A stretch of DNA of 64,000 nt from assembly GCF_009914755.1 (NCBI RefSeq), contig NC_060926.1; one strand, 5' to 3'. Below the pieces are notes generated by a model. The model searched no databases, was not told where the DNA came from, and saw only the letters and a list, made by a program, of their open reading frames with translations. Positions 3,922-50,513 of this stretch are shown here, in pieces. The first letter of the stretch is position 1. Each line of letters begins with the position of its first letter. Origin of the DNA: the human T2T-CHM13v2.0 reference genome, Homo sapiens. Position numbers and translations under genes: made by a program.

Positions 3922-4054
3922 CTTTTCTGAGTTTTTCTAAAGCAGTTCAGGCTATTTTTTATACGTTTGCATGCATTTTCATCTCTTTAATTAAATGAAC
4001 TAATTATAATAACAAGTACAATGGGCATAAACAGTTTTAAGAATAAACACAATT

Positions 4055-4122
4055 GGCTGCTCTGCCTAGGGAGTAGCCATCCTTCATTCCTTTAATTTGT
4101 TCATAACAATAACAACAACAAA
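4055..4122 (+). mobile_element. Short A-tailed retrocopy of a MER41-like LTR R-region hairpin
   Basis: GGCTGCTCTGCCTAGGGAGTAGCCATCCTTCATTCCTTTAATTTG plus A/C-rich tail; TSD aataaacacaat at 4042-4053 and 4126-4137; TTTT/AA nick site at 4035-4040; similar to 50364-50417. Confidence 0.75.
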
Positions 4123-4265
4123 AATAATAAACACAATGACTTATTGAGAATTTGAATTTAATTGGTAGAAGCAGAAATGTGCACACATACAAGAGAGTAG
4201 ACTACTAGTCTCAAGCAGTCAGTAATTCTGCATTTATTCCCAAGAACATTGAGAAGGCCAGTTTC

Positions 4266-4691
4266 GTTTTCTTTCTTTCTTTCTTTCTTTCTTTCTTTCT
4301 TTCTTTCTTTCTTTCTTTCTTTCTTTCTCTTTCTTTCTTTCTCTCTCTCTCTCTCTCTTTCTGTTTCTTTCTTTCCTTCTTTTTCTTTTTTTTGGTTGTT
4401 TTTTGCTTTGAGACAGGGTCTAACTCTGTCACCCAGGCTGAAGTGCAGTGGCACCATCACAGCTCACTGCAGTCTCAACCTCCTGGGTTCAAGTTATCCT
4501 CATACCTCAACTTCCCTAGTAGCTGACACTACATGGGAGAGCCACCACACTCTGCTAATTTCGTGTGTGTGCGTGTGTGTGTGTGGAAATGAGTTAACCC
4601 CCATATGTCCAGGCTGGTCTTGAACTCATGGGCTCAAGCGATCCACCTACCTTAGAGCTGGAATTACAGGCGTGAGCCACCGCGCCCAGCC
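4266..4691 (-). mobile_element. AluJ with expanded (TTTC)n tail and (TG)n linker
   Basis: Alu body about 4408-4691; pyrimidine microsatellite 4266-4405. Confidence 0.9.
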
Positions 4692-4987
4692 ACAGCTAGT
4701 TATTTAACCTCTCTAAACCTTAGTTTCTTCAAAATGAGAGAAATAATGTTCCCTACTTTCAGTGTTGCTATATTGGGATCAAGTGAAATCACTTAGGTAA
4801 GCACTGGCACATGGAAGGAGCTCAACAAACAGCACTTTTGAAAGAAATAAGAGCCAATCCATTTCTGTCCTTTGTTCACTATTATCAACAGTGCCATTTT
4901 TCTTACCTGAGAAGCCTTCCCTGCTCATGGTTTGGCTTAATCCTCACTTTTACCTTCATTTGGCTGTTACTCTATATTAATTCTTCC

Positions 4988-5276
4988 TTTTTTTTGAGAC
5001 AGGGTCCCTCTTTGTCACCCAGGCTGGAAAGCAGTGGCATGCTCTCAGTTCACTGCATCCTCCACCTCCTGGGCTCAAGCAATCCTACTGCCTCAGCCTC
5101 CCAAGTAGCTGGGACTACCGGCCCGTGGCACCACACCTGGCTAATTGCTGTATTTTTTGTAGATACGGGTTTCGCCATGTTGCCCAGGCTGGTCTTGAAC
5201 TCCTGGGCTCAAGCAATCCCCTGGCCTGGGCCTCCAAAAATGCTGGGATTACAGTCATGAACCACCACACCCAGCC
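4988..5276 (-). mobile_element. AluJ SINE
   Basis: Dimeric Alu with J-type gggctcaagcaatcc motifs. Confidence 0.9.
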
Positions 5277-5544
5277 TGATTATTTCCTTCTCATAACTTG
5301 CTATGCCACATCGTAGGCAATTTGACTCAATAAATATCTAATTCTCACTCTAAACAAGACTGTAGTCAAAACTTTGAGATATAACAACAAATATGACACA
5401 GACTCTGTCTTAAATAATTTCCAGTCTAGTTAGTGATATAAAAGAGTACACCAATTCTATTATATGATGCATAAAAGCAGATGAAATTAATCTATGCTAT
5501 GTCAGAATAATGATGACCTTTTAAAGCAATGACAAAGAGGAAAA

Positions 5545-5690
5545 TTAAAGGAAGCCTCTGAAGGGCTGTGTGACTGATCTTCATGGTTATAATATAGATG
5601 TGTTCAATTTATTTTTTAAAAATCAAGCTATTGACTTATGATTTATTCACTTTTCTGTGTGTACATTATATATCAATAAAAGTCTTTACC
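5545..5690 (+). mobile_element. Old L1M 3' end fragment
   Basis: ttatgatttattcacttttctgtgtgtacattatatatcaataaaag resembles an L1ME-type 3' terminus. Confidence 0.5.
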
Positions 5691-5705
5691 AAAAAAATCA
5701 AAAGA

Positions 5706-6070
5706 GACCAGGCATGGTGGCTCATATCTGTAATTCCAGCACTTTGGGAGGCCAAGGCAGGAGAATTGCTTGAGCCTAGGATCTAGAGAATAGCCTGGGC
5801 AAAACGGTGAGACTCCATCTCTACAAAATGAAAAATAAAAAAATTAGTCAGGCATGGTGGCCTGCGCCTGTCCTAGTTACTTGGGAGGCTGAGGTGGGAA
5901 GATCACTTGAGCCCAGGAGGTTGAGGCTGCAGTGAGCTGTGATTGCGTCACTGCACTACTCCAGCCTGGGCAACAGAACAAGACCCCATCTCAAAAAAAA
6001 AAAAAAAAAAAAAAAGAAAAAGAAAAAAGAAAGAAAGAAAAGAACAAGAAAAAGAAAGAAAAGAAAAGAA
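5706..6070 (+). mobile_element. AluJ SINE with long A-rich tail
   Basis: Dimeric Alu, tail 5993-6070. Confidence 0.92.
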
Positions 6071-47539: not shown

Positions 47540-47740
47540 AGTACAAAGTAGATGACTCTAGGGGCCAAAGAAATGGGAAACTGAGTCCTAATTCTGCCAC
47601 TTCTTCTTGGATGTATGACTTGGTGAAATTATTCCACTACTATTGGCCTCAGATATCTCTTCTATAATATGGGGAGAAAAATTGTCTGCCTCATAAAGTC
47701 AGTGTAAAAATTAAAAGCAATAATGTACTATATTTAAAGC
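47540..47740 (+). mobile_element. MIR
   Basis: ctgagtcctaattctgccactt...tgacttgg...gcctcag core. Confidence 0.6.
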
Positions 47741-47917
47741 CCACAGTCATACACCTTTGTTCCATTGCCCTTTTCACATACTCAAAGTCAAAGTAAGGTT
47801 AGCAAAGAGATCAAGGCAACATCTGTCAGAAAGACATAAATTGGAGTGAAGCTTAGGTGGTAGTGAGTTACACTGATAGAAGCTCTGTGAATTAGAGGTC
47901 TTTTAAAGTCAGCAATC

Positions 47918-48213
47918 AGGCTGGGTGCGGTGGCTCATGCCTGTAATCCCAACATGTTGGGAGGGCAAGTTGGGTGGAACACTTGAGGTCAGGAGTTCGA
48001 AACCAGCCTGGCCAACGTGGTGAAATCCTATCTCTATTAAAAATACAAAAACTAGCCGGGCAAGGTGGCAGATGCCTGTAATCCCAGCTACTCGGGAGGC
48101 TGAGGCAGAAGAATTGTTTGAACCCAGAGGGGGAGGTTGCAGTGAGCCGAGATCGTGCCACTGCACTCCAGCCTGGGTGACAGAGTGAGACTCTGTCTCA
48201 AAGAAAAAAAAAA
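47918..48213 (+). mobile_element. AluS SINE
   Basis: TSD aaagtcagcaatca. Confidence 0.93.
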
Positions 48214-48993
48214 AGTCAGCAATCAAAAGTATCTACCTGGATTTGACCACCCTTAAATGGGTCAAGGCTAGGGAGCAAAAAACCCCTCCAAACCTAATTG
48301 AATAAAGAAGTCAAGATATTAATATTCCCAGGCAGAAATACAGAATTACTGGCATCTTCTTTGTACTGCTGGCAATAATAACCTGAATGTTTACAGTAAA
48401 TATTTGTTGAACTAACAATATGTTAGAACACTAAATCTCTTTAGGTGTCCCTATAACAATATTTACTTGGCTTATAAAATCATTTTAGTATTTGCTTCCA
48501 GTTATAACTGGAGGGAATTTTTCTAGCTTCCACCCAAGAAGAGGTCTAAAATGAATTAAAGAACAAACACCTTGAGAGTGTTGAACCAATCTGATATGAT
48601 AGTTCATCACAACCAAAGTAAATTAAAATTATATTAGTTTAGGAAGAAGCAAAATACAAAGGAGATTTATGTAGTTTAACTTATGAGGTTATGTGGATTA
48701 TACTAATTGAAGTTGGTATTAGGGGCACGTTTGGTGAAAATTGCAAATATTTCTATACAGTAGGAAAGATTTCCCATGACTGGATTTCCTTCCAAAGTTA
48801 GATCTATTCATTCCTTAATCCAACAAGCAACTAGTGAGAATCTTCCACGTGCCAAGCATAGAACTGAAAGTATCTGGAGTATTAAAAAAACCCACAACAC
48901 TACCATTCTAGTACCTATTCTTCCAGTGCAATGGGTCCCAAACTCTGTATGTGCAAGAACTACATAGGTAGCTTTTAAAAAATGCATACTTCT

Positions 48994-49287
48994 GGCCGGG
49001 CGCGGTGGCTAATGCCTGTAATTCCAGCACTTTAGGAGGCCAAGGTGAGTGGATCGCCTGAGGTCAGGAATTTGAGACCAGCTTGGCCAAAATGGTGAAA
49101 CCCTGTCTCTACTAAAAATACAAAAATCAGCCGGGTGTGGTGACTCACACCTGTAATCTCAGCTACTCAGGAGGTGGAGACAGGAGAATCGCTTGAACCT
49201 GGGAGGCAGAGGTTGCAGTGAGCCAACATTGCACCACTGCACTCCAGCCTGGGCGACAGAGCAAGACTCCATCTCAAAAAAAAAAAA
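48994..49287 (+). mobile_element. AluS SINE inside a MER5-like MITE
   Basis: TSD aaaaatgcata. Confidence 0.92.
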
Positions 49288-49450
49288 TGCATATTTCTTG
49301 GGCTTACCATATAAATGCTGAGGGTGAGGCTAATAATCTGCATTCTCATAAAGCACTTTAGATGATTCAAATGCATATGGATGTGAACCACACTGTAAAG
49401 CACATTATTCTACAGCTAGAACTTATAAACTAGTCTGAAATATTTAAAAT

Positions 49451-49501
49451 ATGTGTGTGTGTGTGTGTGTGTGTGCGCGCGCGCATGTGTGTGTGTGTAT
49501 G
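49451..49501. repeat. (TG)n(CG)n(TG)n alternating purine-pyrimidine tract
   Basis: Seen directly. Confidence 0.95.
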
Positions 49502-49883
49502 ACATCTAGATAACATAAACATGTTCAAGGTAATGCAAAATAATGAGTTTCTTTGCTTGGAAATTAGGGGGGTGTATGAAGTGGGAGGAAGAGAGGAGTT
49601 TTATCAAGAAAGACTTTGCTGAATAGTTAAGGTTGAACTCCAAGATGAATAGGAGCCTGGATACTTGCCAAGAGATCAGCAGGAGACAGCTACACCTGGG
49701 AAGAAGAGTTAGCTAAGGTTGAGGAAAAGGGAAACCAGTTAACATATTGCCTTGAATCCTGAAGAGTTTAGCTCTGATTCAACAGAAGCTTAAGAAAACA
49801 ACTGGCATAATGACAATGTGAGCTGAGATTTCTTATCCTAGAGCCTCCAATTGGGGTGTTCTGGAGTGAGAAGAGATTCAAAG

Positions 49884-50513
49884 TGTCAGGGACATTCGAA
49901 CCAGAGCAACTCCATCTTGAATAGGGGCTGGGTAAAATAAGGCTGGGACCTACTTGGCTGCATTCCCAGGAGGGTAGGAATTCTTAGTCCCAGGATGAGA
50001 TAGGAGGTCAGTATAAGATACAGGTCACAAAGACCTTGCTGATAAAACAGCATGCAGTAAAGAAGTCGACCAAATCCCACCGAAACCAAGATGGTGATGC
50101 AAGTGACCTCTGGTGGTTCTCACTGCTCATTATACGCTAATTATAATGTATTAGCATGCTAAAAGACACACCCACCAGAGTCATGACAGTTTACAAATGC
50201 TGTAGCAATATCAGGAAGTTATCCTATATGGTCTAAAAAGGGGAAGAACCCTCAGTTCTGGGAATTGCCCACCCCTTTTCCAGAAAACTCATGAATAATC
50301 CACCTCTTGTTTAGTATATAATAAAGAAGTAACAATAAGTATAAGCAGCTGAGCAGCCCATGCCCTTGCTCAACCTATGGAGTAGACATTCTTTTGTTTC
50401 TTTACTTTCTTAATAAACCAGCTTTCACTTTATGGATTTGCCTTGAATTCTTTCTTGCATGAGACCTAAGAACCCTCTCCTGGAGGCTGCTTTGGGACTC
50501 CTTTCTGGTAACA
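49884..50513 (+). mobile_element. MER41B (ERV1) solo LTR
   Basis: tgtcagggacattcgaaccagagcaactccatcttgaatagg...ggtaaca, 630 bp; 4-bp TSD aaag. Confidence 0.92.
50256..50264. promoter_or_regulatory. GAS (STAT) motif TTCTGGGAA in MER41B
   Basis: Exact TTCN3GAA; the second tandem site at 50277-50285 is imperfect. Confidence 0.6.

What the first reader, a model, noticed from the sequence alone, without database searches (positions are those of the whole stretch)
4039..50513. Candidate class of micro-retroposons: LTR R-region hairpin RNAs copied by L1
Seen: three unlinked 40-55-nt inserts (4055, 27619, 42957), each with an A-rich tail, a 12-17-bp TSD and a 5' stem-loop. Two share one sequence and start at the same GGC. 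One matches the MER41B LTR in this window at 38 of 41 nt (50374-50414), and its start maps about 24 nt downstream of that LTR's TATAA (50340), near an expected start site. Established: a TSD plus A-tail at TT/AAAA marks L1 target-primed reverse transcription, whereas ERV1 integrase leaves whole TG...CA LTRs with 4-bp TSDs. Inference: ERV1 LTRs produced abundant short TAR-like RNAs that L1 mobilised as a SINE-like family. Three in 64 kb suggests many copies genome-wide, hidden as 'LTR fragments'. I cannot confirm this is unpublished.
Basis: partly seen in the sequence, partly recalled or inferred. Interest (0 to 1): 0.85.

Follow-up and report, generated by a model that had tools for sequence, protein, structure and literature searches.

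The report
L1 retrocopies of LTR R transcripts
Three tiny inserts in this human window are RNA-derived copies of the short R stretch of retroviral LTRs, pasted in by the L1 machinery; an estimated few hundred similar copies sit in the genome looking like LTR fragments, which extends known processed pseudogenes rather than adding a new kind of mobile element.

Summary
All three inserts exist with flanking duplications of 14-18 bp, A-rich tails, T-rich/A-rich nick sites and a predicted 5' hairpin.

Two are the R region of a MER41-type LTR (the family name is not tool-checked). They start at the same GGC(T/C) and one matches the window's solo LTR at 38 of 41 bases.

The class is real genome-wide:
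- Of all 77 copies whose R ends in poly(A), 45 start at the transcription start site with unrelated flank. Only 5 start inside R or are unclear.
- 21 of 28 classified elements that start at that site are R-only.
- Flanking duplications reach 10 matches or more in 19 of 33 copies, against 9 of 314 permuted pairs.
- Complete R-U5...U3-R-poly(A) processed pseudogenes begin at the same base.

Best reading (0.7): about 65-nt transcripts, started and polyadenylated within one LTR, were copied by L1.

They are dead-on-arrival retrocopies, not a SINE-like lineage. I estimate roughly 150-650 copies, so two in one window is luck. The class is family-specific: the third insert's LTR family shows almost none. 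Ten literature searches found no prior description, but Pavlicek 2002 could not be read.

The parts
4039..4053 (+). 5' copy of the flanking duplication of insert 1 (AAGAATAAACACAAT), preceded by TTTT
   Evidence: family D17: 15 nt, 1 mismatch
4054..4122 (+). Insert 1: R-only retrocopy of a MER41-type LTR. The R part runs 4055 to about 4106, up to the degenerate AATAAA hexamer. The A-rich CAA-type tail is at 4107-4122.
   Evidence: alignment to insert 2 and to the window LTR; hairpin -16.3 kcal/mol
4123..4137 (+). 3' copy of the flanking duplication of insert 1
27601..27618 (-). Flanking duplication of insert 2 (the 3' copy in the insert's orientation)
   Evidence: family D15: 18/18
27619..27677 (-). 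Insert 2: R-only retrocopy of a MER41-type LTR. The A run appears as T8-9 at 27619-27626 on the + strand. The R part is 27627-27677, and the tail begins at the hexamer.
   Evidence: (38/41 to 50374-50414; 44/50 to 50368-50417)
27678..27695 (-). Flanking duplication of insert 2 (the 5' copy in the insert's orientation)
42943..42956 (+). 5' copy of the flanking duplication of insert 3 (AAAGCATGAACTTA), preceded by ATT
   Evidence: family D8
42957..43012 (+). Insert 3: the first 38 nt or so of the R region of a second ERV1-like LTR family, then A6TTTAACAAG. Its 5' end corresponds to 30 nt after that family's TATAAA.
43013..43026 (+). 3' copy of the flanking duplication of insert 3
49884..50513 (+). 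TATAAG is at 50340-50345, R is about 50364-50430, AATAAA is at 50412-50417 and CACTT at 50426-50430. It is a relative of the source of inserts 1 and 2, not necessarily the source itself.

Best explanation
Inserts 1 and 2 are L1-made retrocopies of a very short RNA polymerase II transcript. The same holds for an estimated few hundred similar 60-75-bp 'LTR fragments' in the genome.

Proposed steps:
1. Transcription starts at the U3/R border of a MER41-type LTR, at GGCT, 24-28 nt after the TATA-like box.
2. The RNA is cleaved and polyadenylated at the same LTR's own poly(A) site, usually 13 nt after AATAAA. It is therefore R plus poly(A), about 65 nt.
3. L1 ORF2p nicks a TT/AAAA-like site, primes on the poly(A) tail and copies the RNA to its 5' end. 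This leaves a flanking duplication of about 10-18 bp.

The copies have no promoter and do not propagate. Insert 3 is most likely the same kind of event from a second LTR family, but it is a near-singleton with an atypical 3' end.

Shown here: the anatomy, the shared ends, the flanking duplications and the nick sites. Inferred: the short-RNA intermediate and the involvement of L1.
For: (1) 5' ends pile up at one base.
- All 77 genome hits of 'R 3' end plus poly(A)' (control 0) were fetched and read.
- 45 start within -5..+6 of GGCT with non-LTR flank. 2 more do so beyond an inserted Alu.
- 22 carry U3, 1 starts about 20 nt upstream, 5 start inside R or are unclear, and 2 are cut by an Alu.

(2) The same base starts most no-U3 elements.
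- One search gives 158 exact GGCT...24-mers.
- 58 of them have a non-G at -11. By eye, 38 of those lack U3, 6 are ambiguous and 14 carry U3.
- 32 of the 38 have a non-G at -1.

(3) That base is an RNA 5' end.
- L019 is a complete R-U5-leader...U3-R-A25 processed pseudogene with flanking duplications.
- L020 and L028 are R-U5-leader copies. All three start at the same GGCT.

(4) L1 hallmarks.
- Flanking duplications reach 10 matches or more in 19 of 33 R-only copies, against 9 of 314 permuted pairs.
- In those 19, A is at +1, +2 and +3 in 16, 15 and 13 copies. T is at -1 and -2 in 11 and 10. Flank composition is 29% A and 30% T.
- The three window inserts have TTTT|AAG, TTTG|AGA and ATT|AAAG.

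(5) 3' ends scatter as cleavage sites do. They fall at CACTT, 6-8 nt later, 4-8 nt after the hexamer, and at the hexamer.

(6) R-only copies outnumber long ones.
- 21 R-only against 5 that run into U5, among 28 classified start-site elements. The other 2 are Alu-cut and 10 were not fetched.
- 5 against 3 in the first 30 loci.

(7) R-only copies are as old as the LTRs.
Against: - No RNA data were available, so the 65-nt polyadenylated RNA is inferred. Use of a poly(A) site this close to the cap is usually thought inefficient (recalled for HIV-1 and similar viruses).
- Complete processed pseudogenes with R at both ends exist. R/R recombination could therefore yield the same end product.
- Both MER41-type window inserts, and about 2-4 of the 21 R-only copies and its companions, have tails at or within 8 nt of the AATAAA hexamer. 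Normal cleavage does not explain this.
- Insert 3 stops about 38 nt into R, far from its family's ATTAAA.
- The class is almost absent from the second LTR family. A general property of LTR promoters does not suffice.
- The classifications were made by eye plus local alignment to one natural copy. They rest on exact-match samples, which favour little-diverged copies.
Confidence: 0.7

Rival explanations
1. Solo-R by recombination. L1 first inserted full or spliced proviral transcripts (R-U5...U3-R-poly(A)). Later recombination or single-strand annealing between the two 65-bp R repeats deleted everything between them. That would leave R-poly(A) with the original flanking duplications.
For: Such two-R processed pseudogenes exist, some of them short. 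L019 has about 880 bp between its R copies, and L028 is similar. The end product would be indistinguishable in sequence.
Against: - R-only copies outnumber start-site elements that still run into U5 by 21 to 5 and by 5 to 3.
- They also outnumber all U3-bearing poly(A)-terminated copies by 45-47 to 22.
- The rival would therefore need at least about two thirds of all insertions to have been 5'-complete, and most of those to have recombined over only about 65 bp. From general knowledge, both are atypical for L1-made copies of kb-long RNAs and for mammalian homologous recombination.
Confidence: 0.13
2. Template jump during L1 reverse transcription. ORF2p starts on the poly(A) tail of a full-length proviral RNA, copies the 3' R, then switches within R to the 5' R of the same or another RNA and runs off the 5' end.
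For: L1 template switching is documented for U6/L1 chimeras (recalled; it is cited in passages of PMC2912911). The product would start at the start site and end at the poly(A) site.
Against: - A homology-guided switch would have to occur in most events to explain R-only copies being the majority class.
- L1 has no RNase H to free the nascent cDNA for re-annealing (recalled).
- No chimeric intermediates were seen among the 77 + 30 + 20 loci read.
Confidence: 0.05
3. A self-propagating SINE-like family. Under this view R-hairpin retrocopies are themselves transcribed and re-copied.
For: Many copies share exact ends, and a 5' hairpin is predicted.
Against: - The copies lack U3, and I looked for no internal promoter.
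- Pairwise distances give no sign of a separate lineage: 0.194 among R-only copies, 0.202 between R-only and LTR-borne R, 0.201 among LTR-borne R.
- Copy number is modest.
Confidence: 0.03
4. The inserts are not retrocopies. They are chance remnants of solo LTRs eroded by deletions, or by-products of the retrovirus's own reverse transcription.
For: RepeatMasker-type annotation would simply call them LTR fragments.
Against: - Deletion remnants would not have identical ends, poly(A) tails and 10-18-bp flanking duplications.
- Retroviral strong-stop DNAs are R-U5 or U3-R-U5-PBS, not R-poly(A).
- Integrase gives 4-bp duplications, as at the window's own LTR.
Confidence: 0.02

Closest known systems
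HERV-W (LTR17) processed pseudogenes made by L1. Pavlicek 2002 and Costas 2002 are known to me only as described in passages of Grandi 2016, PMC5016936.
   Same: - L1-mediated copies of LTR-initiated RNA.
- The 5' end is at the U3/R border and the 3' end at the R/U5 border plus poly(A).
- TT/AAAA sites and flanking duplications of 5-15 bp.
- MER41 is placed in the same HERVW9 supergroup (PMC4724089 passage). That link holds only if the family name is right.
   Different: - The copies here contain R alone (about 65 bp), with no U5, internal region or U3.
- They are the majority class for this LTR family.
- The family is not HERV-W. The abstract of PMC5537654 calls HERV-W the sole HERV group specifically mobilised by L1.
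SINE-R / SVA
   Same: Sequence derived from a retroviral LTR end and moved by L1, with poly(A) and flanking duplications (listings and abstracts of PMC3287187 and PMC7353768).
   Different: SVA is a composite, still-active, self-renewing family of 1-3 kb. The R-only copies are single-module, promoterless, about 45 My old and not self-renewing.
Small-RNA retropseudogenes (Y RNA, 7SL, snRNA, tailless tRNA copies)
   Same: Copies of about 60-110 nt of abundant small structured RNAs, flanked by L1-type duplications (PMC2912911 passages). One Y RNA copy lies in this very window at 30541-30651.
   Different: Those templates are Pol III or non-polyadenylated RNAs. They are often tailless, 3'-truncated or made by template switching. 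The R-only template is bounded by a Pol II start site and a canonical AATAAA-directed poly(A) site.
Retro-DNAs: L1 retrocopies of DNA-transposon sequence (Tang and Liang, PMC11195612, passages)
   Same: Repeat-derived fragments that are annotated as one class but were actually inserted by L1. They were recognised by flanking duplication, tail and nick motif.
   Different: Retro-DNAs have no defined own start site and come from host transcripts. The R-only copies have fixed ends set by the LTR's own signals.
Short promoter-proximal TAR transcripts of HIV-1 (recalled, not checked)
   Same: A short 5' hairpin RNA from the start of R.
   Different: TAR short transcripts are non-polyadenylated products of pausing. 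The typical RNA here ends at the poly(A) site. Insert 3 (about 38 nt of R) is the only one that might fit a paused RNA.

Membership tests
L1-mediated processed retrocopy (target-primed reverse transcription product) | Flanking target-site duplication of about 7-20 bp | tested here: met
   Window inserts: 15 bp (1 mismatch), 18 bp and 14 bp. Genome sample: 10 matches or more in 19 of 33, against 9 of 314 permuted pairs.
L1-mediated processed retrocopy (target-primed reverse transcription product) | 3' poly(A) or A-rich tail directly before the 3' duplication | tested here: met
   Pure A runs of 5-15 in the 33 copies. In the window: A8-9 for insert 2, a CAA-type tail for insert 1 and a weak A6 tail for insert 3.
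L1-mediated processed retrocopy (target-primed reverse transcription product) | Insertion at a TT/AAAA-like endonuclease site | tested here: met
   A at +1, +2, +3 in 16, 15, 13 of 19 copies; T at -1, -2 in 11, 10 of 19; background is about 30% each. Window inserts: TTTT|AAG, TTTG|AGA, ATT|AAAG.
L1-mediated processed retrocopy (target-primed reverse transcription product) | The copy corresponds to a mature RNA, from transcription start to poly(A) site, without a promoter | tested here: met
   The 5' end is at one base shared with complete processed pseudogenes. The 3' end is mostly 13 nt after AATAAA. The RNA itself was not observed.
HERV processed pseudogene in the HERV-W sense | R-U5 at the 5' end and U3-R at the 3' end, flanking internal retroviral sequence | tested here: not met
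   The window inserts and 45-47 of the 77 poly(A)-terminated copies hold R only. L019, L020 and L028 elsewhere in the genome do meet it.
SINE / autonomous-in-transcription non-LTR family | An internal promoter carried by each copy, and a lineage of copies descending from copies | tested here: not met
   U3 is absent from the copies. The R-only set is no closer to itself than to LTR-borne R: 0.194 against 0.202. A Pol III A/B box scan was not done.
MER41-type ERV1 LTR (R region) | Sequence identity to the R region of the LTR family | tested here: met
38/41 and 44/50 to the window LTR. There are 3,061 genome hits of the R 22-mer at 3 mismatches or fewer, with control 0. No repeat library was available to confirm them.
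ERV1 solo LTR (window 49884-50513) | TG...CA termini and a 4-bp target duplication | tested here: met
   TGTCAG...GGTAACA, flanked by AAAG on both sides.
TAR-like regulatory hairpin | A stable 5' stem-loop with a demonstrated function | tested here: inconclusive
   Stems are predicted, with z-scores of -1.9 to -2.7. Neither covariation nor function was tested.

The most novel reading that the evidence does not exclude
R-region mini-transcripts may be a previously unrecognised, unusually efficient class of L1 template. Under this reading, an LTR whose poly(A) signal lies in R emits capped, polyadenylated RNAs of about 65 nt. L1 captures these far more readily than full-length viral RNA. Capture may happen partly at the site of transcription. 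Two of the 77 poly(A)-terminated copies sit in the antisense R of another MER41-type LTR, at the same target of about 15 nt. The fossil copies would then give base-exact maps of start and poly(A) sites of extinct retroviruses. They would also show that promoter-proximal poly(A) sites were used in the germline.
Probability: 0.15. Interest if true: 0.75.

Novelty: new variant of a known kind. Interest (0 to 1): 0.5.

Why it matters
- It re-labels an estimated few hundred 'LTR fragments' as L1-made retrocopies. They carry a different insertion mechanism and date than the annotation implies.
- It shows that an LTR family other than HERV-W was substantially mobilised by L1. This includes complete R-U5...U3-R-poly(A) pseudogenes. 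One review abstract calls HERV-W the sole such group (PMC5537654).
- The copies pin the transcription start and the poly(A) sites of a roughly 45-My-old retrovirus to the base.
That bears on how retroviruses silence their 5' poly(A) site.
- It is not a new kind of mobile element.

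Tried and rejected
- **Chance or deletion remnants.** Rejected on the end distribution and the flanking-duplication statistics.
- **Retroviral strong-stop DNA or integrase products.** Rejected on structure and on the size of the duplications.
- **An RT stop at the hairpin as the cause of the common 5' end.** Rejected. 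The hairpin is fully copied, and long processed pseudogenes start at the same base.
- **Extra untemplated G from the cap.** No sign of it: G at -1 in only 6 of 38.
- **Tail-at-hexamer copies as a large separate class.** Exact patterns gave 0 and 1 hits. Reading 3' ends directly found 2 at the hexamer and 2 within 8 nt, among 21. It is a minority and remains unexplained.
- **Generality across LTR families.** The second family gave 0 of 29 and 1 clear case of 69. Other families could not be tested without typing sequence from memory.
- **Rfam.** No RNA family matches any insert at gathering threshold.
- **A wrong fold.** The fourth fold (L069 coordinates) was taken on the wrong strand and is void.
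- **Literature.**
  - Ten full-text searches found no description of R-only retrocopies. The last included the 17-base core motif.
  - I also read passages of eight papers.
  - Pavlicek et al. 2002 (Genome Res) is not held.
  - Their 2002 Gene paper on length distribution was not seen. Grandi 2016 reports that its commonest HERV-W length class was 0-0.5 kb, so R-only or near-R-only copies may be implicit there.

Full report
**1. What is in the window**

| Insert | Window place | Start of insert | Tail | Flanking duplication | Nick context |
|---|---|---|---|---|---|
| 1 | 4054-4122 (+) | GGCTGCTCTGCCTAGGGAGTAGCC | CAA-type A-rich | 15 bp, 1 mismatch | TTTT\|AAG |
| 2 | 27619-27677 (-) | (G)GCCGCTCTGCCTATAGAGTAG | 8-9 A | 18/18 | TTTG\|AGA |
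| 3 | 42957-43012 (+) | TGGAGTCTCTGAATCC | A6TTTAACAAG | 14/14 | ATT\|AAAG |

- Inserts 1 and 2 align along their whole bodies. Insert 2 matches 50374-50414 at 38 of 41, exactly as claimed.
- That stretch lies in a 630-bp solo LTR at 49884-50513. It has TG...CA ends and a 4-bp AAAG duplication.
- Within the LTR, TATAAG is at 50340, AATAAA at 50412 and CACTT at 50426-50430. Insert 2's start maps about 24 nt after the TATA box.
- Each insert begins with a predicted hairpin: -16.3, -8.9 and -15.4 kcal/mol, with z-scores of -2.7, -1.9 and -2.1.
I had no repeat library to check them.

**2. Is there a class? Sampling from the 5' side**

- The window's own genome could be searched. The R-start 22-mer has 405 exact hits and 0 in the reversed control.
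- I read the first 30 loci, all on contig 1, by eye:
  - 22 have LTR U3 sequence upstream.
  - 5 are R-only (L005, L006, L008, L022, L025). These have unrelated flank, then GGCT..., then ...CACTT, then poly(A) and a flanking duplication.
  - 3 start at the same GGCT but run on into U5 (L019, L020, L028).
- Those three share about 80 nt of post-LTR leader with one another.
- L019 is a complete R-U5-leader...U3-R-A25 element of about 950 bp with flanking duplications. It is a processed pseudogene of the HERV-W kind.
- GGCT is therefore an RNA 5' end. It lies 27-28 nt after an ATAAAA box in those LTRs.

**3. Sampling from the 3' side, which is unbiased for the 5' end**

The pattern 'AATAAA...CACTT plus A4 or more' has 77 hits and control 0. 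All 77 were fetched. I classified them by eye and by local alignment to one natural LTR copy.

| Class | Count of 77 |
|---|---|
| Start within -5..+6 of GGCT, non-LTR flank (R-only) | 45 |
| Carry U3 | 22 |
| Start about 20 nt upstream (L073) | 1 |
| Start inside R or unclear (L079, L105, L121, L122, L127) | 5 |
| Abut an antisense Alu | 4 |

- In 2 of the 4 Alu-abutted cases (L078, L113), the rest of R lies beyond the Alu and again starts at the start site.
- Random 5' truncation of longer RNAs would not put 45-47 of 77 ends on one base.

**4. L1 hallmarks**

- In the first 33 R-only copies, the best flank match reaches 10 or more in 19, against 9 of 314 permuted flank pairs.
- In those 19, the duplication starts with A at +1, +2 and +3 in 16, 15 and 13 copies. 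It is preceded by T at -1 and -2 in 11 and 10. Background is about 30% for each base.

**5. How many copies**

- The R-U5 contiguous pattern has 775 hits, against 77 for R-poly(A).
- The R 22-mer at 3 mismatches or fewer has 3,061 hits.
- The exact GGCT...24-mer has 158 hits.
- 58 of those have a non-G at -11. By eye, 38 clearly lack U3, 6 are ambiguous and 14 carry U3.
- 28 of the 38 could be classified (earlier loci): 21 R-only, 5 running into U5 and 2 cut by an Alu. Ten were not fetched.
- These fractions, about 5% from the 3' side and 16-22% from the 5' side, applied to 3,061 give roughly 150-650 R-only copies.
- That is one per 5-20 Mb, so two in this window is a coincidence rather than a density.

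**6. 3' ends**

- Most tails start after CACTT.
- Others start 6-8 nt later (L147, L151, L152) or 4-8 nt after the hexamer (L156, L139).
- Some start at the hexamer: L141, the contig-8 element, and window inserts 1 and 2.
- The scatter downstream of the hexamer looks like cleavage-site heterogeneity. Tails at the hexamer are unexplained. Candidates are internal priming on AAUAAA or a later deletion between A runs.

**7. Age and lineage**

- Mean pairwise distances over the 50 bases before the hexamer are 0.194 among R-only copies, 0.201 among LTR-borne R and 0.202 between the two sets.
- A few flank bases are included in the R-only rows, which inflates their value slightly.
- The R-only copies are therefore as old as the LTRs. 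At a recalled neutral rate of about 2.2e-9 per site per year, that is about 45 My.
- They form no lineage of their own, so they are not a SINE-like family.

**8. The third insert**

- Its core occurs 125 times at 2 mismatches or fewer. It lies in an LTR family with TATAAA exactly 30 nt before TGGAG, an ATTAAA signal, and an end in ...TTTTAACA.
- None of the 29 other sampled copies lacks U3.
- Of 69 exact hits chosen for a non-C at -11, only one (contig 17) shows a clean unrelated flank before TGGAG.
- Insert 3 holds only about 38 nt of R. It is most likely the same kind of event, but rare and 3'-atypical.

**9. Mechanism and rivals**

- Best reading (0.7): short R transcripts, started and polyadenylated in one LTR, were copied by L1.
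- The main rival is R/R recombination within two-R processed pseudogenes such as L019 (0.13).
  - Against it, R-only copies outnumber U5-continuing start-site elements by 21 to 5.
  - They also outnumber all U3-bearing poly(A)-terminated copies by 45-47 to 22.
  - The rival would need most insertions to have been full length and then to have recombined over about 65 bp.
- I rate template jumping, a self-propagating family and chance remnants lower. Reasons are given in the fields above.

**10. What is known**

- HERV-W processed pseudogenes have the same ends and hallmarks (PMC5016936 passages).
- One review abstract calls HERV-W the sole HERV group specifically mobilised by L1 (PMC5537654).
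- MER41 is grouped with HERV9 and HERV-W (PMC4724089 passage).
- Ten searches and passages from eight papers gave no description of R-only copies.
- Pavlicek 2002 could not be read. Its companion length study reportedly found 0-0.5 kb to be the commonest class. Prior implicit sightings are therefore possible.

**Verdict**

This is a new variant of a known kind, and I score interest at 0.5.

Noticed in passing
window 30541-30651 (-): A Y RNA match at Rfam gathering score (43 bits, full model length), followed by an A-rich stretch. It is probably a Y RNA retropseudogene, another small-RNA L1 retrocopy in the same window.
   Followed up: partly
L019 (G000 contig 1, about 165.02 Mb), locus positions 1497-2466 in the element's orientation: A complete processed pseudogene of the MER41-type virus: R-U5-leader, a large internal gap, U3-R, A25 and flanking duplications of about 16 bp. 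L020 and L028 are similar. L1 mobilisation of this group contradicts the 'sole HERV group' wording of one review abstract.
   Followed up: partly
L068 and L133: Two independent R-only copies are inserted, in opposite orientation, into the R region of another MER41-type LTR. Both lie within the same target of about 15 nt (AAAGTAAAGG...). By my rough estimate only about 0.01-0.03 such hits are expected among 47 insertions. This could reflect a strong endonuclease hot spot or capture near the site of transcription.
   Followed up: no
L002, L012, L026, L030, L075, L078, L113, L118, L138, L153: The T-rich tract of R (CATTCTTTTATTCCTTTACTTTCTT) often carries an antisense Alu or another poly(T)-led insertion. 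It appears in 4 of 30, 4 of 77 and 2 of 20 loci read. The tract therefore looks like an L1 endonuclease hot spot.
   Followed up: no
window 4107-4122 and 27619-27631; also L141 and the contig-8 element: In these R-only copies the A tail begins at the AATAAA hexamer itself, which normal cleavage 10-30 nt downstream does not explain.
   Followed up: partly
window 13522-13642: A 34-bp direct repeat (97% identical, 87 bp apart) flanks a TA/GA microsatellite. It looks like a local tandem duplication, not a retrocopy.
   Followed up: partly
window 53113-53260 (+): A match to the metazoan SRP RNA model (76 bits), most likely an Alu-type element.
   Followed up: no
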